Positions 50,520 through 57,106 of a stretch of DNA of 64,000 nucleotides are shown here, piece after piece. Under the pieces are notes generated by a model. The model had not been told where the DNA came from and ran no database searches. It worked only from the letters and a program-made list of their open reading frames with translations. Numbering within the stretch: position 1 is the stretch's first letter; each line of letters opens with the position of its first letter. Both the position numbers and the translations under genes were made by a program. The stretch comes from a virus (taxonomy: Duplodnaviria; Caudoviricetes): positions 210,897 to 274,896 of IMG/VR virus record IMGVR_UViG_3300034161_000018; one strand, written 5' to 3'.

Positions 50520-51002
50520 ATGAACAAGCGTATTAGCCAGAATTATGATTTGCGTGACGTGTCCTATTCCTACGCAGCGCAACGCCTCGGCATCGACAAC
50601 ACCCCGTCTGCCGCAGTAGTGAAAAACGCGAGCGCACTTGCACAGAAAGTTTTGGAACCGTTGCGCGAACAGTTTGAATTCATTTACGTTCACAGTTGGT
50701 ATCGCTCGCCAGCGTTGGAACGTGACTTGTGCAAACAAGCATTCTACAAATGGTGCGTGGACAATCGCCGTCACTTCGCCGACGCCAATAGCTGGCGCGA
50801 TTATCTCGAAACCAAACAACACCCGTTGGGCCAAGCCGTGGACATTCGTGCGAAGAACGGTTCGATCCGTGACCTGTACGAATACATCCGCGCCAACCTT
50901 CCGTTCGATGTTTTGAAAACTGAATTCCACACCGTCATTGAAGAAAGCGGCTGGGTTCACGTTTCGTATGTCGAAGGTGCAAACCGAGGACAATTTGAAT
51001 GA
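50520..51002 (+). CDS. Peptidase M15 (Zn LAS family), probable endolysin
   Basis: SWYRSPAL, QHPLGQAVDI (His, Asp) and WVHVSY (His) Zn ligands. Confidence 0.88.
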   Translation: MNKRISQNYDLRDVSYSYAAQRLGIDNTPSAAVVKNASALAQKVLEPLREQFEFIYVHSWYRSPALERDLCKQAFYKWCVDNRRHFADANSWRDYLETKQHPLGQAVDIRAKNGSIRDLYEYIRANLPFDVLKTEFHTVIEESGWVHVSYVEGANRGQFE

Positions 51003-51544
51003 GCAAAGTAATGCTTTCTCTTTCGTCTGGCCTACCGTCGCATTTTCAAATCGGTGACGAAGCGCTATTTTGTGCGAGCGGCGTAAATGGCATCGGTATG
51101 TATTTGTACATTCCGGCTTCGATTCTGCCGGGTTGCCCGAAGTGCCGAGTGGTTTCTGTAAAGTTTACTCGGAGCAAAGTGATTTACGCGGTCGAACTTT
51201 TCGTCGAGTACGCGGATGGCACTGGCGAGTATTACGAAAGTTTCCCGTTGGAAAATATCGACTCCACTTTCCTGCAACCGCTGGATCAAGTGCGGGCGTA
51301 TGCAGCATTCGTCGAACACACAAAGAAAGATTACATGCGCGACACTAAAGGCATGGAAAACGGCGTGATTGATCCTGCTGTTTTCCCACCGGGCGCACAA
51401 GCTACTGGCATGCGGGCAATCTTTGGTGACGTGTTCAAAGATTTGCCGAAACCTGATCCGAATTTCAAAGGCCCGCAGTATGGGTTCTTTGGTGAAGCTT
51501 TCAAAAACATGCTCGACGAAGCGCGCAGTAAGGCTGGCCGATGA
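50999..51544 (+). CDS. Hypothetical protein with SKVMLSLS leader
   Basis: MSKVMLSLSSGLPSHFQIGD start. Beta-barrel-like N-terminal half. Confidence 0.7.
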   Translation: MSKVMLSLSSGLPSHFQIGDEALFCASGVNGIGMYLYIPASILPGCPKCRVVSVKFTRSKVIYAVELFVEYADGTGEYYESFPLENIDSTFLQPLDQVRAYAAFVEHTKKDYMRDTKGMENGVIDPAVFPPGAQATGMRAIFGDVFKDLPKPDPNFKGPQYGFFGEAFKNMLDEARSKAGR

Positions 51545-54132: not shown

Positions 54133-54142
54133 GGAAAAGAAA

Positions 54143-57106
54143 ATGGAAAAGCTTGTCAGTCTTTCCGTTGTGTCGTTAAAGACCGCGATGAAATATCGAC
54201 GCGACTGGAAAAAGGATGGCCCGACGCCTCGGTTCCTCCGCAAGTTTATGCCACGCGGCTCGAAAGGTTTCCGTGTGTATTTGCCAATCGGCGGTTCTAC
54301 AAATCCGGTTGTGCCAGTTGTTCCGCTGGCCGTGCGTCATGCGCTGCGCGTTGCAGGCTACCGTGTCTCTGATTATCTGGCGAAGAAATGCGTCAAGATC
54401 AAAGACAAAGAACAGAAAAACTTCTACAACATCGGCAAGGTGATCGCAAAAGACAGCGTAGCAAAAGCCGCGTTCGACAATGATCCACAATTGCAAAACT
54501 CGAATTCCGAAGGTTTTCAGGTTGTCGTTTCCTGCCACCCGTATGACATTATCGGTATGTCTACTGGCCGCGATTGGGATCAAACGAGTTGCATGCGTCT
54601 GAAAGATGGGCGCGAGGGTGTTAAAAACGGCGCGTACCATGAGCATTTGGAAAACGATGTTGCGGAAGGCACTTTGGTTGCTTACGCAATTCGTATCGGT
54701 GACGACAACATCAAACAACCGTTGTGCCGTTGCCTGCTCAAACCTTTCAAGAACGATCAGGGCGACATTCTGTATCGTCGCGAATCCAGCGTTTACGGAA
54801 ACAACGTTCCCGGTTTCGGTGACACGTTAAACAAATTCGTGCGCAAGCTGAACGCCCGCGTTCCATCTGGTGAATACTGGCTGACTAGCGGACTGTACGA
54901 CGACGGTGTAGGTGAAAACACCGAACACTTCGACAGCAGCACGAAAAACCAAAGCGTTAATTGGAAACGTGAAGGCAGTCCCGGCCACGTACTGGAAGCG
55001 AACCCGGCACTGTTTCCAAGTTGGGCAGCATTCCGAATTAGCGAAGCGAAAAACGAACCCGATCCGAATGCGGATGACGCACCGCAAGAACGCCAACGTC
55101 GGCAAGGCCCACCGGGTCGCGGTCGCATGGCACGTCCGGTTGTTCGCCGGGACAAGTGGGGCAAAGCTGCAAAAGAAATCATTCTGTATGCGCAAGACAG
55201 CGAACCGCAATTCGTGAAACAAGCCGCACGCGTTATGGCCCTTTCACCTGAAATCATGTCGGCGTTTCTCAAAGAAATGACTGTCATGACTTCCGGCAAG
55301 AATGCTGCGCCGTTCTTCCGCAGTGCTGAATTCCGCGAAGCGATGAAAGCCGCCGTTGCACAAGCTGCATTGGACTTTCAAAAGTTTGGTCACGAAGCAC
55401 AGGGCGCTCTCACATTCGCATCGCAAAGTTTTGCACGCGAGTATGCAGCCGATTTGGAAGACTTGGATTCCATCGGTAAGGCCGCAGTGGATTTCAACAA
55501 CGAAACACTCAAGCTAAACAAAAGCGACATTCTCAAATCGCCGCGTTTGCAGGAAAGCGTTTGGCTGGTTGCCAATCTGGAACGTGAGCGTTTGCCGTAT
55601 CAGGATTCCAAATTCATTCGGCAGATTCACCGCACGCTGGCGACGATTCCAAAACCTGAAACCATTTCTATCGAAGTGAAACGGGCGATACTGGCCCGCT
55701 TGCTGGAAGATGGCGAAACCGTAACTGTTTTGGTTTGGGGTTTGCAGGCAGCGAAGAACGATCCGACATTCTTTGCCGAAATCGAACGGAACTGGGAAGA
55801 AAGCATGGACATGGTTGTCAACATGCGGAAACTCAGGCGGGAAATGTTTAAGCTTGCGGATGAAAACCCAAAAGTCGCATCGCAACTCAGCAGCGCGATT
55901 GGCACTCAGTTCATGCAAGACGAAGTGACCGGGCCGGAAGCGCAGAAGGAAGCGCGGCTGTTCGTTGTGAAACACGGCATCGACGCGCTAACGTTTGGCA
56001 AATACAAAAAGATGATTTCGGCGCTCAAGGATTTGGCACCGTACATCTATTGCGGCAAGTTTGAAATCAACAACGTTGAAGACATTGACGAACTCATTTC
56101 GTTTGGTTTGAAAGCTTTGATGCGTACTTGGAAAGCACTCGCTACCTCTGGTCTGCACGTCACCGCAATCAATCCAGCACAGCAACGAATGTTTGATTTC
56201 ATTGGCACGATGTTGAATCTGCAAAACCCACCAGTGGCCGCACCGTTCGATTTCAGTTCGGATAAAGTTTTGCCAATCCTGATGAAAAGTTCGTACCTGT
56301 TGCAGACCGGTGCCGACTTCCATCTGTACCCGGATAGCCTGAACGAAGACGCAATCGAAAACATTACGCCTTCCTCGTTTGTGCGAGACGACAACGGCAA
56401 AACGTCGCTGGAAATCTTTGCGAAGAAAGCGCGTTCCTTTGAGCGGTTCTGCCAATGGATCAGTGACGTTATGCAAAGCAGTGGCAACACGCGGGCAATC
56501 TCCGAAGCAATCGGTTTGCCGACTACACGCGGTCGCCGTTCCAGCTTTATCGAATTCGCATCTGATAACGCGGGCAATCAAACTGTTTTGTTGGAGAAGT
56601 ATCAGCAGGCGGTCGATTATCTGAAAAAGATGATGGGCTTCTATCTGGTGTTCCCTTGTGATTTGTCGCCAAACTTTGAACGCCATGCAATCGAGTGGAT
56701 TCAACAGTACGGCTACACCGCAGCGGACTTCAACGAAGAATATTCGACAATGCAAAATCTGTCGTCGGACATTACGGAACAAGCCTTGAATACCAAAACT
56801 GCTTTGCGCAGACTGCGTATGGCATTTGAGGAAGACGAAAAAGGCATGGAAACCTCGCTCGACGAAATGGATGCGCAGTTCTTGCCAATGTTTAATCAAT
56901 GGCACCGTAAGAGCAACGATGTTCCAGACGCCCGCAATGACGAAGACGAAGATGCGGACGAGGATGCGGATGACGAAGAAGAACCGGATGAAGACGATGA
57001 TGAAAAGGGAGTTTACCGCGCTTCCCAATGGCGTCCGGGTCGCAATGATCCGGATGACGAAGAAGACGAAGACGAAGACGAAGAAATAGACGACGATATG
57101 TTTTAA
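54143..57106 (+). CDS. Large (987 aa) protein with KLVSLS leader and highly acidic C-terminal tail
   Basis: ATG at 54143 after AAGGA. SCHPYDIIGMSTGRDW..SCM and GTLVAY motifs. Asp/Glu-rich tail. Confidence 0.8.
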   Translation: MEKLVSLSVVSLKTAMKYRRDWKKDGPTPRFLRKFMPRGSKGFRVYLPIGGSTNPVVPVVPLAVRHALRVAGYRVSDYLAKKCVKIKDKEQKNFYNIGKVIAKDSVAKAAFDNDPQLQNSNSEGFQVVVSCHPYDIIGMSTGRDWDQTSCMRLKDGREGVKNGAYHEHLENDVAEGTLVAYAIRIGDDNIKQPLCRCLLKPFKNDQGDILYRRESSVYGNNVPGFGDTLNKFVRKLNARVPSGEYWLTSGLYDDGVGENTEHFDSSTKNQSVNWKREGSPGHVLEANPALFPSWAAFRISEAKNEPDPNADDAPQERQRRQGPPGRGRMARPVVRRDKWGKAAKEIILYAQDSEPQFVKQAARVMALSPEIMSAFLKEMTVMTSGKNAAPFFRSAEFREAMKAAVAQAALDFQKFGHEAQGALTFASQSFAREYAADLEDLDSIGKAAVDFNNETLKLNKSDILKSPRLQESVWLVANLERERLPYQDSKFIRQIHRTLATIPKPETISIEVKRAILARLLEDGETVTVLVWGLQAAKNDPTFFAEIERNWEESMDMVVNMRKLRREMFKLADENPKVASQLSSAIGTQFMQDEVTGPEAQKEARLFVVKHGIDALTFGKYKKMISALKDLAPYIYCGKFEINNVEDIDELISFGLKALMRTWKALATSGLHVTAINPAQQRMFDFIGTMLNLQNPPVAAPFDFSSDKVLPILMKSSYLLQTGADFHLYPDSLNEDAIENITPSSFVRDDNGKTSLEIFAKKARSFERFCQWISDVMQSSGNTRAISEAIGLPTTRGRRSSFIEFASDNAGNQTVLLEKYQQAVDYLKKMMGFYLVFPCDLSPNFERHAIEWIQQYGYTAADFNEEYSTMQNLSSDITEQALNTKTALRRLRMAFEEDEKGMETSLDEMDAQFLPMFNQWHRKSNDVPDARNDEDEDADEDADDEEEPDEDDDEKGVYRASQWRPGRNDPDDEEDEDEDEEIDDDMF

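What the first reader, a model, noticed from the sequence alone, without database searches (positions are those of the whole stretch)
50999..57106. Shared N-terminal K-V-x-L-S-L-A/S leader on six adjacent unrelated proteins, a candidate capsid-targeting tag for injected effectors
Seen: MSKVMLSLSS (50999), MKVFLSLATT (51541), MKVMLSLATT (52048), MKVMLSLAGE (52440), MKVMLALAGS (53014) and the weaker MEKLVSLSVV (54143). ATGAAAGTCATGCTC is identical in three genes. Similarity stops after residue 8-10, and the bodies are different folds (ART-like, GNAT, zincin, second ART-like, two unknown). The leader is too short and not hydrophobic enough for a Sec signal. Established analogy: T4 internal proteins carry a ~10 aa capsid-targeting sequence removed by the prohead protease, and T4 packages the ADP-ribosyltransferase Alt for injection. 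Inference: this is a late-expressed cassette of host-takeover or anti-defence enzymes loaded into the head through a portable tag, perhaps cleaved after SLA/SLS. I do not know whether this tag has been described. It would be a tool for loading cargo into jumbo phage heads.
Basis: partly seen in the sequence, partly recalled or inferred. Interest (0 to 1): 0.9.

Follow-up and report, generated by a model that had tools for sequence, protein, structure and literature searches.

The report
Head-loading clip-off tag, Lu11-like jumbo phage
Six neighbouring, unrelated enzymes of an uncultured 275-kb relative of Pseudomonas phage Lu11 all start with the same 8-residue peptide, whose last four residues also mark likely cutting sites in the phage's capsid, scaffold and head protease, so it is most probably a removable address label for proteins packed into the virus head; no experiment has tested this yet.

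Summary
The six genes begin M(S)KV[MF]L[SA]L[AS] or MEKLVSLS. About nine more genes elsewhere in this 274,896-bp phage genome carry the same leader, including a type IB topoisomerase.

Synonymous codons in the leader are scrambled, so selection acts on the peptide, not the DNA.

Relatives carry their own versions: Lu11 MKIQLAVA, HRDY3 MEMMLALA, and Erwinia and Dickeya phages MEIVVSLSA. In 114 homologues of the sixth protein the N-terminal piece is 5 to 19 residues long. It always ends hydrophobic-[A/G/S]-[L/T/V/I]-[A/S] just before the conserved body.

The same four-residue motif occurs twice in the capsid protein's N-terminus. One site predicts the roughly 20% mass loss published for PaBG capsid protein. 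It also occurs five times in the scaffold-like protein and at the start of the head protease.

Distant homologues of gene 5 in T4-like phages carry a T4-type capsid targeting sequence at the same position.

Best reading (about 0.6): a non-T4 capsid-targeting and prohead-protease propeptide on a cargo of polyvalent-protein-type enzymes. Packaging, cleavage and injection are all inferred.

I found no paper describing this tag. This scan's AI notes reported the same tag class before on other DNA (e1-5377055, e1-5319655).

The parts
50999..51544 (+). Gene 1, 181 aa, leader MSKVMLSLS (50999-51025), body of unknown fold
   Evidence: No Pfam, PHROG or PDB sequence match. The Atlas gives only weak Tudor/PWWP-like leads.
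51541..52047 (+). Gene 2, 168 aa, leader MKVFLSLA (51541-51564), ADP-ribosyltransferase of the polyvalent-protein type
   Evidence: PF18760 ART-PolyVal, E 2.1e-20, 74.3 bits against a cut-off of 31.2. It matches giant-protein PHROGs 21376 and 30335. The Lu11_0205 orthologue starts VKIQLAVA.
52048..52437 (+). Gene 3, 129 aa, leader MKVMLSLA (52048-52071), small GNAT-like acetyltransferase
   Evidence: Several GNAT Pfam families at 1e-4 to 1e-5, near their cut-offs. rimI at 0.0045. The HRDY3 orthologue is annotated GNAT and starts MELLIALA.
52440..53012 (+). Gene 4, 190 aa, leader MKVMLSLA (52440-52463), HExxH zincin-like metallopeptidase
   Evidence: PF07737 ATLF, E 1e-5, 25.8 bits, just under the 27.4 cut-off. 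HEMAH is visible in the translation.
53014..54132 (+). Gene 5, 372 aa, leader MKVMLALA (53014-53037), N-terminal ART-fold domain plus helical C-terminal half
   Evidence: AF2 mean pLDDT 82, residues 1-7 below 50. Foldseek top hits are DarT, Tpt1/KptA and CC0527, E 2e-3, prob 1.0. 32 orthologues all carry M-[KEQ]-h-x-h-[AS]-h-A-G-S. Distant members carry T4-type tags.
54143..57106 (+). Gene 6, 987 aa, leader MEKLVSLS (54143-54166), conserved 250-aa N-domain, helical middle, polyacidic C-terminus
   Evidence: 116 homologues. The junction motif is invariant in 114 of them. AF2 mean pLDDT 86, residues 1-7 below 50. Only weak GNAT-like fold matches, Z about 5. Paralogues lie at genome 132988 and 135185.
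49629..51002 (+). Upstream lysis-type genes in the same orientation: membrane protein, lipoprotein (spanin-like), M15 endolysin-like peptidase whose stop overlaps the start of gene 1
   Evidence: phrog_894 endolysin 8e-19 and phrog_23384 lipoprotein 6e-14. ATGA overlap at 50999-51002. A strong terminator at 48737-48769 precedes this unit.

Best explanation
The shared N-terminus is a short, disordered propeptide. It consists of Met, a few variable residues and a terminal motif hydrophobic-[A/S/G]-[L/V/T/I]-[A/S]. It marks proteins destined for the inside of the prohead in the Lu11/PaBG/Y3 ('Lupandier') group of jumbo phages. Proposed mechanism, with all steps inferred: the tagged proteins are made late, enter the assembling scaffold core, and the prohead serine protease cuts after the final A/S (for example MKVMLSLA|T, MKVMLALA|GSSILYH). 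The same protease would trim the capsid protein, the scaffold-like protein and its own N-terminus at the same motif. The released cargo stays in the head and probably leaves with the DNA. That cargo comprises an ART-PolyVal ADP-ribosyltransferase, a GNAT, a zincin, a second ART-fold protein and large proteins of unknown function. Elsewhere in the genome it includes a type IB topoisomerase, a KMPT-N protein and probably the giant SNF2 helicase. In effect the domains that other phages fuse into one injected 'polyvalent protein' are encoded here as separate genes, each with its own tag. What is shown: the tag exists, is selected as a peptide, is clade-wide, is not part of the folded bodies, and shares its motif with head-maturation substrates. 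What is inferred: targeting, cleavage, packaging, ejection and timing.
For: (1) Peptide-level selection. Leu7 uses five codons and Ser6 uses both TCN and AGY codons across 11 copies. The same holds in Lu11 and HRDY3.

(2) Specificity. The core occurs only after start Mets. Counts are 9, 8 and 9 pattern hits against 0 controls in this genome, Lu11 and HRDY3.

(3) Clade-wide conservation with genome-specific consensus. Lu11 has MKIQLAVA, HRDY3 MEMMLALA, and Erwinia and Dickeya phages MEIVVSLSA or MEILVSISA. Identity at positions 2-4 is 0.53 within genomes and 0.17 between genomes, p<=2e-4, although many genes are orthologues. This fits a shared, co-evolving reader.

(4) The junction, not the length, is conserved. 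In 114 homologues of gene 6 the N-piece is 5-19 aa. Position -4 is hydrophobic in 107, -3 is A/G/S in 113, -2 is L/T/V/I/M in 113, and -1 is A or S in 113.

(5) Same motif in head-maturation proteins. The capsid protein (phrog_2522, 6e-113) has exactly two motif sites in its first 130 residues. The invariant LALS site is conserved in five phages, and a second site reads IATA|A. The PaBG equivalent predicts a 21.0% mass loss, against 'about 20%' measured for PaBG capsid protein (PMC7412058). The scaffold-like 653-aa protein has five copies, conserved after its acidic tract. The head maturation protease (phrog_18299, 1e-92) starts MKKELSLSFS. The motif is enriched in the proteome, 51 against 32 +/- 6.

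(6) Tag swapping at one position. Homologues of gene 5 in T4-like phages start MKKFNEFANE (Vibrio phage K566, which also has MKTLQEFLAE and MKTLAEFLGE genes), MRFKKFLTEG and MRISDFLTEA directly before the same SSILYH body. These resemble the T4 CTS MKTYQEFIAE, recalled from my own knowledge.

(7) AF2 leaves residues 1-7 below pLDDT 50 in both modelled proteins.

(8) Cargo types match proteins predicted or known to be packaged: ART, GNAT and metallopeptidase domains of polyvalent proteins, and T4 Alt (PMC5512222; KMPT-N). The orthologue of the giant SNF2 helicase, PaBG gp202, is in the PaBG virion by mass spectrometry (PMC7412058). It carries the motif near its N-terminus.

(9) The cassette lies at the end of the tail-fibre and lysis block.
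Against: No virion proteome, N-terminal sequence or expression data exist for this phage or for any of the six proteins. The only proteome in the clade (PaBG, 14 gel bands) contains no homologue of them, and PaBG gp83 has no homologue here. The cut position is inferred. The motif definition was widened after the fact to include the PaBG capsid site (VAAA|E). Y3 capsid protein lacks the second site. The four-residue motif is low in information and occurs about 32 times by chance in this proteome. The protease could not be assigned to S77, S78 or S80 by Pfam or PDB sequence search; only Atlas feature leads exist. Within-genome similarity of tags could partly reflect recent duplication, since three copies share 15 identical bases. 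A topoisomerase and a helicase are unusual capsid cargo. Cleavage and targeting cannot be separated by sequence alone.
Confidence: 0.6

Rival explanations
1. The motif is only a prohead-protease cutting site, or an N-terminal propeptide that keeps the enzymes inactive until cut. Entry into the head would be directed by something else, or these proteins would not be packaged at all and would be processed in the cytoplasm.
For: The conserved element is the junction motif rather than a fixed-length tag. The same motif is internal in the scaffold and capsid proteins. A zincin and ADP-ribosyltransferases are enzymes that could need latency.
Against: Prohead proteases are active inside proheads (established for T4 and HK97, from my own knowledge), so substrates normally have to be inside. 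In T4 the same short peptide both targets and is cut (PMC3012670). Positions 2-4, upstream of the motif, are also conserved within each genome.
Confidence: 0.17
2. The tag is an address for another phage machine, not the capsid: for example a chaperone or AAA+ translocase, a replication compartment, or assembly by beta-strand addition to a partner.
For: The pattern alternates hydrophobic and small residues, as in an amphipathic beta-strand. It sits on DNA enzymes (TopIB, SNF2 helicase). Genome-specific consensus implies a co-evolving reader of unknown identity.
Against: The motif recurs in the capsid protein, scaffold and head protease, which points to the head. T4-type capsid tags replace it in distant homologues.
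Confidence: 0.1
3. The tag is a degradation or timing signal read by host proteases. It resembles the ClpX N-terminal motif Met-basic-hydrophobic x3 (recalled from my own knowledge) and would limit the lifetime of toxic enzymes.
For: MKVMLSLA fits Met-basic-hydrophobic-hydrophobic-hydrophobic. The cargo enzymes could harm the infected cell if long-lived.
Against: Position 2 is Glu in HRDY3 and in the Erwinia and Dickeya phages, and Asn or Gln elsewhere. The invariant part is the small-x-small junction, which that signal does not need. This reading does not explain the capsid and scaffold sites.
Confidence: 0.05
4. The conservation is a nucleic-acid feature: a translation-initiation or downstream-box cassette, or a recombination site for shuffling gene cassettes, conserved as DNA or RNA.
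For: Three genes share an identical 15-mer. Several starts overlap or abut the previous stop, so translational coupling is plausible.
Against: Third positions are scrambled in all three genomes, including TCN/AGY serine switches that need two or more base changes. Upstream regions are not alike. The amino-acid pattern is kept across about 50% diverged phages with different codons.
Confidence: 0.03
5. The tag is an unconventional export or membrane signal cut by host signal peptidase at an A-x-A-like site.
For: The ends SLA, AVA and ALA obey the -3/-1 small-residue rule of signal peptidase I (recalled from my own knowledge).
Against: The hydrophobic stretch is only 5-6 residues, with no h-region and no lipobox. 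The neighbouring true lipoprotein, by contrast, has MRKLVLLVVVMSLAAC. The cargo consists of cytoplasmic-type enzymes. The motif is internal in the scaffold and capsid proteins.
Confidence: 0.02

Closest known systems
Capsid targeting sequence (CTS) of phage T4 internal proteins IPI, IPII, IPIII (and the processed N-terminus of Alt), removed by prohead protease gp21
   Same: Both are short N-terminal peptides of about 10 residues shared by otherwise unrelated proteins. In T4 the peptide directs them into the scaffolding core and is then cut off; the proteins form a diverse anti-defence and host-takeover set with only the tag conserved (PMC3012670). Here too the only shared element is the tag, the cargo includes an ADP-ribosyltransferase, and distant homologues of one cargo carry a T4-type tag at the same place.
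   Different: The sequence class is different: hydrophobic/small alternation ending in small-x-[A/S], not MKTYQEFIAE ending in L/I-x-E. The phage lineage is different and has no Pfam-detectable gp21 or gp23. The N-piece varies in length (5-19 aa) with a fixed junction. No experimental proof of targeting or cleavage exists.
Polyvalent proteins of phages and conjugative elements (Iyer et al. 2017, PMC5512222)
   Same: The domain repertoire is the same: ART-PolyVal (PF18760), GNAT, zincin-type metallopeptidase, KMPT-N and SNF2 helicase. These are predicted to be packaged and delivered with the DNA.
   Different: Here the domains are separate small genes, each with its own N-terminal tag, instead of one giant polypeptide. 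Release would be by the head protease at the tag rather than by an embedded peptidase.
Prohead-protease propeptides of phiKZ-like phages (phiKZ, 201phi2-1, SPN3US): many head and ejection proteins cut at S/A/G-x-E
   Same: This is a jumbo-phage head with many internal proteins, each trimmed by one protease at a short shared motif that also cuts the capsid and scaffold proteins (PMC5694885 and PMC10052503 abstracts; the motif itself is from my own knowledge).
   Different: The motif here has no Glu at -1. The propeptides here are very short (about 8 aa) and nearly identical. The lineages are unrelated.
Encapsulin cargo-loading peptides
   Same: These are short hydrophobic/small-residue peptides (for example ..LTVGSL..) that dock cargo enzymes on the inner face of an HK97-fold shell (from my own knowledge). 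The capsid protein here has an HK97 fold (PMC7412058).
   Different: Encapsulin tags are mostly C-terminal and are not cleaved. I could not test any docking here.

Membership tests
T4-type capsid targeting sequence (CTS) system | Short N-terminal peptide shared by otherwise unrelated proteins of one phage | tested here: met
   Six adjacent genes plus about nine dispersed genes carry it. The bodies are unrelated by BLASTP.
T4-type capsid targeting sequence (CTS) system | Sequence of the T4 class (MK-x-[YL]-x-EF-[IL]-x-E) ending in the gp21 site L/I-x-E | tested here: not met
   The leader is M-[KE]-h-x-h-[SA]-h-[SA] with no Glu at the end. T4-type tags occur only on distant homologues in T4-like phages.
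T4-type capsid targeting sequence (CTS) system | A T4 gp21-family (Peptidase_S77) prohead protease and a gp23-type capsid protein | tested here: inconclusive
   PF03420 and PF07068 find nothing in the genome. A head maturation protease of phrog_18299 is present. Atlas feature leads point to the S78/S77/S80 clan only weakly.
T4-type capsid targeting sequence (CTS) system | The tag motif equals the cleavage motif used on capsid and scaffold proteins | tested here: inconclusive
   The same four-residue motif occurs at two capsid N-terminal sites, five scaffold sites and the protease N-terminus. One capsid site fits the published PaBG mass loss. No cleavage site has been mapped experimentally.
T4-type capsid targeting sequence (CTS) system | Tagged proteins are present in virions with the tag removed, and the tag suffices to load a foreign protein | not testable with these tools
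   This needs virion mass spectrometry and reporter fusions in a cultured relative.
Polyvalent proteins (Iyer et al. 2017) | Two to fifteen disparate effector domains in a single polypeptide | tested here: not met
   The domains are encoded as separate genes of 129-372 aa. Only the domain repertoire is shared.
Polyvalent proteins (Iyer et al. 2017) | Presence of signature domains such as ART-PolyVal and KMPT-N | tested here: met
   PF18760 scores 74.3 bits, above its cut-off. PF20294 KMPT-N scores 30.9 bits, above its cut-off, in the tagged 409-aa protein.
Sec/lipoprotein signal peptides | Hydrophobic h-region of 10 or more residues before an A-x-A or lipobox site | tested here: not met
   Only 5-6 hydrophobic or small residues follow the Met. 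Compare the true lipoprotein at 50063.

The most novel reading that the evidence does not exclude
The Lu11/PaBG/Y3 clade of jumbo phages uses its own capsid-loading code, unrelated in sequence to the T4 CTS. The code is an 8-residue beta-strand-like tag ending in hydrophobic-small-x-[A/S]. One head protease reads it on cargo, capsid protein, scaffold and itself, and its variable positions co-evolve genome by genome. The cargo is a disassembled 'polyvalent protein' kit that includes two ADP-ribosyltransferases, a GNAT, a zincin, a type IB topoisomerase and a 2000-residue SNF2 helicase. These phages would then inject a DNA-topology and host-modification toolkit along with the genome, and the tag would be a portable handle for loading foreign proteins into about 100-nm heads.
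Probability: 0.45. Interest if true: 0.75.

Novelty: new variant of a known kind. Interest (0 to 1): 0.62.

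Why it matters
If the tag works as proposed, the packaged, probably injected proteome of a whole clade of jumbo phages can be read directly from sequence. That clade covers Pseudomonas, Erwinia and Dickeya hosts and many uncultured relatives of 250-320 kb.

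It would show that the T4 principle, one short clip-off label plus one head protease, evolved or diversified into an unrelated sequence code. It would also link Aravind's 'polyvalent protein' effector domains to a concrete loading mechanism.

It predicts that a type IB topoisomerase and a giant SNF2 helicase travel inside the capsid. PaBG virion mass spectrometry already supports this for the helicase.

Practically, an 8-residue tag for loading enzymes into large heads could be tried in cultured relatives such as Lu11, HRDY3 and the P. putida G3 phages.

Tried and rejected
- **Nearest relatives.** Megablast of the locus against the phage collection found nothing. Only blastn at lower stringency found Lu11 and HRDY3.
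- **T4-type head genes.** Pfam models for T4 gp21 and gp23 found nothing in the genome.
- **PDB sequence searches.** Searches with genes 1, 5 and 6 and with the protease gave nothing usable. NCBIfam added nothing.
- **Gene 6 N-domain fold.** Foldseek and VIA-align gave only low GNAT-like scores (E 0.03; Z about 5), so I leave the fold open.
- **Gene 1.** The Atlas search gave only sub-threshold leads.
- **Complex prediction.** Head protease (residues 18-274) with the tagged GNAT protein returned 'no answer' (score 0.01). This counts neither for nor against binding.
- **Virion proteomics in the clade.** The PaBG paper lists 14 bands, none a homologue of the six proteins. The Y3 proteome paper is not in the library. 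The P. putida phage collection paper has no proteomics. Y3 GenBank annotation does not mark proteins detected by mass spectrometry in the region fetched.
- **Literature string search.** Searches for MKIQLA, MKVMLSLA and similar strings found no paper.
- **DNA-level cassette.** Rejected because synonymous sites are scrambled.
- **Sec or lipoprotein signal.** Rejected because there is no h-region.
- **Strict per-genome identity of tags.** I considered this and dropped it. Contigs with several family members show mixed tags such as MEMQLALA and MKTEVALA, so the genome-specific consensus is a tendency, not a rule.

Full report
**1. What the window is**

The window is bases 210,897-274,896 of a 274,896-bp virus record with direct terminal repeats. 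It is a jumbo phage. Its nearest named relatives are Pseudomonas phages Lu11 and HRDY3, at about 69% nucleotide identity over parts of the locus. The capsid protein is 68-71% identical to those of Lu11, PaBG and HRDY3 and about 50% identical to those of Erwinia Y3/Yoloswag-like and Dickeya JA-like phages. This is the 'Lupandier group' of PMC7412058.

**2. The observation**

Six adjacent + strand genes start at 50999, 51541, 52048, 52440, 53014 and 54143 with MSKVMLSLSS, MKVFLSLATT, MKVMLSLATT, MKVMLSLAGE, MKVMLALAGS and MEKLVSLSVV.

- The 15-mer ATGAAAGTCATGCTC occurs three times in the whole genome, at three of these starts.
- BLASTP shows that similarity ends at residue 8-12 and that the bodies are unrelated.
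- In my 301-gene, 82,151-aa gene set, the core K[VI]x[LI][SA]L[SA] is found only directly after a start Met.
- A degenerate DNA pattern for the peptide hits nine times, against zero for the reversed control.
- For three genes the ORF continues upstream of the leader Met, but metagenomic orthologues begin exactly at the leader.

**3. It is a genome-wide set, not a six-gene cassette**

Further leader-type starts lie elsewhere in the genome:

| Genome position | Strand | N-terminus | Size / identity |
|---|---|---|---|
| 83343 | - | MKVLLSLAKD | 157 aa, between the protease and scaffold genes |
| 87215 | - | MFVALALAPA | 542 aa |
| 92179 | - | MIIAIAAAPA | 409 aa, KMPT-N domain, PF20294 |
| 132988 | + | (GTG) MKTMLSLAA | 623 aa |
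| 134869 | + | MKVMLSLAA | 100 aa |
| 135185 | + | MEVLLGLAA | 616 aa |
| 207585 | + | MYISLASV | 555-aa type IB topoisomerase, PF01028 6e-15 |
| 209252 | + | MKVLISLS | 81 aa |
| 209497 | + | MEVMLSLA | 84 aa |

First-stage readers of other windows of this genome had noted some of these (e1-5404081, e1-5404088, e1-5404128). I re-derived and checked them.

**4. Selection acts on the peptide**

Across 11 copies, Leu7 is written CTT, CTC, CTG, TTA or TTG. Ser6 is TCT, TCC, TCG, AGC or AGT. Ala8 uses all four codons. Upstream regions differ. Lu11 (14 copies) and HRDY3 (11 copies) behave the same way. This removes the translation-cassette and recombination-site readings.

**5. The tag is clade-wide, with a house style per genome**

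- In Lu11, the syntenic block Lu11_0196-0213 has at least 12 genes starting MKIQLAVA or MKIMLA... The pattern gives 8 hits against 0 controls in the whole record.
- HRDY3 uses MEMMLALA, with 9 hits against 0 controls.
- Yoloswag has MEKVVSLSA and MEIVVSLSA. JA29 has MEILVSISA, MEIEVSLSA, MKTVVSISA and MKVTLDLSA. The 'weak' sixth leader of the window belongs to this variant.
- The orthologues of gene 5 in about 32 metagenomic relatives all read M-[KEQ]-h-x-h-[AS]-h-A-G-S before an invariant SS[IV]LYH.
- Tags are more alike within a genome than between genomes, although many of the genes are orthologues. Identity at positions 2-4 is 0.53 against 0.17, with permutation p<=2e-4.
- This is a tendency, not a rule, and paralogy inside genomes inflates it. 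With scrambled codons, it fits a shared, co-evolving reader.

**6. The junction is what is conserved**

In 114 homologues of gene 6 and its paralogues, the piece before the conserved body (A-V-S-[LM]-[KR]..) is 5 to 19 residues long, with a mode of 8. Its last four residues are nearly fixed:

- Position -4 is L/I/M/V in 107.
- Position -3 is A/G/S in 113.
- Position -2 is L/T/V/I/M in 113.
- Position -1 is A in 104 and S in 9.

That is the signature of a processing or recognition site placed at the boundary. AlphaFold models of gene 5 and of the gene 6 N-domain leave residues 1-7 below pLDDT 50, while the bodies are confident.

**7. Link to head maturation**

The head module lies at genome 78-87 kb. 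Its genes are:

- Capsid protein: 371 aa, phrog_2522, 6e-113.
- A virion structural protein: the PaBG gp81 homologue.
- A 653-aa scaffold-like protein with Zn-ribbon units, a long acidic tract and a helical C-terminal half.
- A head maturation protease: 274 aa, phrog_18299, 1e-92.

The motif hydrophobic-[SA]-hydrophobic-[SA]-small is enriched in the proteome (51 against 32 +/- 6 in shuffles) and is concentrated in this module. There are five copies in the scaffold-like protein, three in the 144-aa protein next to the capsid gene and two near the N-terminus of the 1992-aa SNF2 helicase.

In the scaffold alignment, the sites just after the acidic tract are conserved in Lu11 and PaBG.

The protease begins MKKELSLSFS. 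Lu11 has ..GELALGFTLGTP and HRDY3 has ..DEMALGFSMGTP.

The capsid protein has exactly two motif sites in its first 130 residues:

- An invariant L-A-L-S-x-[SA]-T-G-E, conserved in five phages.
- A second site: IATA|A here, VATA|S in Lu11, IATA|S in HRDY3 and VAAA|E in PaBG.

Cutting at the second site removes 18-22% of the mass, and 21.0% in PaBG. The PaBG paper reports that the capsid protein loses 'about 20%' on maturation and that several virion proteins are processed (PMC7412058). This concordance is the only experimental anchor. It is indirect, I widened the pattern to include the PaBG site, and Y3 lacks it.

**8. Tag swapping in distant homologues**

The ART-fold body of gene 5 starts at SSILYH.

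- In T4-like Vibrio phage K566 the homologue starts MKKFNEFANELAEAVNDTVYHGT. The same phage has genes starting MKTLQEFLAE and MKTLAEFLGE.
- Metagenomic homologues start MRFKKFLTEGVSSILYH, MRISDFLTEAASSILYH and MKLIQLTEGLSSILYH.
- These resemble the T4 CTS (MKTYQEFIAE, cut after L/I-x-E; sequence from my own knowledge; function in PMC3012670).
- In Salmonella phage Sen-NF the homologues start directly MILYHF with no tag, while a neighbour starts MLISLSAT.

So one cargo family carries, at the same position, either a T4-type tag or the tag described here. This is what one expects if both do the same job for different head machineries. By analogy the cut here falls after Ala8.

**9. The cargo**

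| Gene | Assignment | Evidence |
|---|---|---|
| Gene 2 | ART-PolyVal | |
| Gene 3 | Small GNAT | |
| Gene 4 | HExxH zincin just under the ATLF cut-off | |
| Gene 5 | ART fold nearest DarT and Tpt1/KptA (Foldseek E 2e-3, prob 1.0, TM by target 0.4-0.6) plus a helical half. Invariant Y14, H15, S53, R56, E103, E105, D106, R107, E123 and H125 in 29 sequences | |
| Gene 6 | Conserved N-domain of uncertain, weakly GNAT-like fold with an invariant S-x-H-P-x-D...S-C-M-R block, and a polyacidic C-terminus | |
| Gene 1 | Unknown | |

ART, GNAT, metallopeptidase, KMPT-N and SNF2 domains are the stock of 'polyvalent proteins', which are predicted to be packaged and injected (PMC5512222; PMC7824862). PaBG gp202, the orthologue of the giant helicase, is a virion protein by mass spectrometry.

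**10. Context**

The cassette ends a long + strand block of baseplate and tail-fibre genes. A strong terminator lies at 48737-48769. After it come a membrane protein, a lipoprotein and an M15 endolysin-like gene, whose stop overlaps the start of gene 1. Late expression is therefore plausible but not shown.

**11. Verdict**

The best reading, at about 0.6, is a capsid-targeting and prohead-protease propeptide of a sequence class different from T4's. The main rival is that it is only a cutting or latency site, at about 0.17. The other rivals are minor.

I file it as a new variant of a known kind. It works like the T4 CTS but fails the sequence test for membership, and the protease family could not be assigned.

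I found no publication describing it.

The same tag class was already reported by this scan's AI notes on other DNA: e1-5377055 (a Lu11-like phage with MEMxLALA) and e1-5319655 (PaBG/NCTB type). A related note covers Y3 (e1-4038791). Those notes are not independent evidence.

Noticed in passing
L012:7585-9252 (genome 207585-209252, just upstream of the window): A 555-aa type IB topoisomerase (PF01028, 6e-15) begins MYISLASV. Its orthologues in Lu11 (MNVHIAVAAA) and HRDY3 (MMEMSIAAAA) are also leader-like. A capsid-packaged TopIB would be unusual for a phage.
   Followed up: partly
L008:4613-5728 (genome 78613-79728, - strand): The capsid protein has an invariant 12-residue block, L-A-L-S-x-[SA]-T-G-E-x-N-A, at residues 37-48 in five phages. 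A second motif site near residue 80 predicts a mass loss matching the roughly 20% published for PaBG.
   Followed up: yes
L010:2193-8171 (genome 116193-122171, - strand): A 1992-aa SNF2-type helicase has FISLSAAG at residue 35 and VSLSGG at residue 175. Its PaBG orthologue gp202 is a virion protein by mass spectrometry (PMC7412058), so it may be a packaged helicase.
   Followed up: partly
window 48737-48769: A strong intrinsic-terminator-like hairpin (14-bp stem, T run) follows the 578-aa tail gene. It separates the tail block from the lysis genes and the tagged cassette.
   Followed up: no
window 49629-51002: Lysis-type trio: a membrane protein, a lipoprotein with MSLAAC lipobox (phrog_23384) and an M15 endolysin-like peptidase (phrog_894). 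These lie directly upstream of the tagged cassette, and the endolysin-like gene's stop codon overlaps the start of gene 1.
   Followed up: partly
window 56900-57106: The last roughly 70 residues of the 987-aa protein are almost pure Asp/Glu. An Arg/Gly-rich basic patch (RQRRQGPPGRGRMARPVVRR) lies near residue 330. The scaffold-like protein also has a long acidic tract.
   Followed up: no
L020:5971-6552 (Vibrio phage K566, OZ196521.1): A T4-like Vibrio phage carries a homologue of gene 5 behind a T4-type CTS (MKKFNEFANE). Two more genes in that phage start MKTLQEFLAE and MKTLAEFLGE.
   Followed up: partly
L014:5682-6644, L017:46296-47659 (PaBG gp83, gp219, gp220): PaBG uses a different-looking N-terminal style: MLIKINLLEAVAA, MAAIKINLAEAA, and ..SFEAVAAGS. 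gp83 is a virion protein by mass spectrometry, and EAVAA also occurs at the capsid protein's predicted 21% cut site.
   Followed up: partly
L008:4112-4546 (genome 78112-78546, - strand): A 144-aa protein just downstream of the capsid gene contains three copies of the motif (MLAIAA, VAIAAS, VSVASN). It may be a small head protein that is heavily processed.
   Followed up: no
window 54143-55000 and L011:2988-7035: The roughly 250-aa N-domain of gene 6 has two paralogues at genome 132988 and 135185. It has homologues in Ralstonia phage RsoM2USA, Agrobacterium phage Atu_ph07 and 600-kb 'huge phages'. It contains an invariant S-x-H-P-Y-D..M-S-T-G-R-x-W-D..S-C-M-R block that looks catalytic but matches no known family.
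   Followed up: partly
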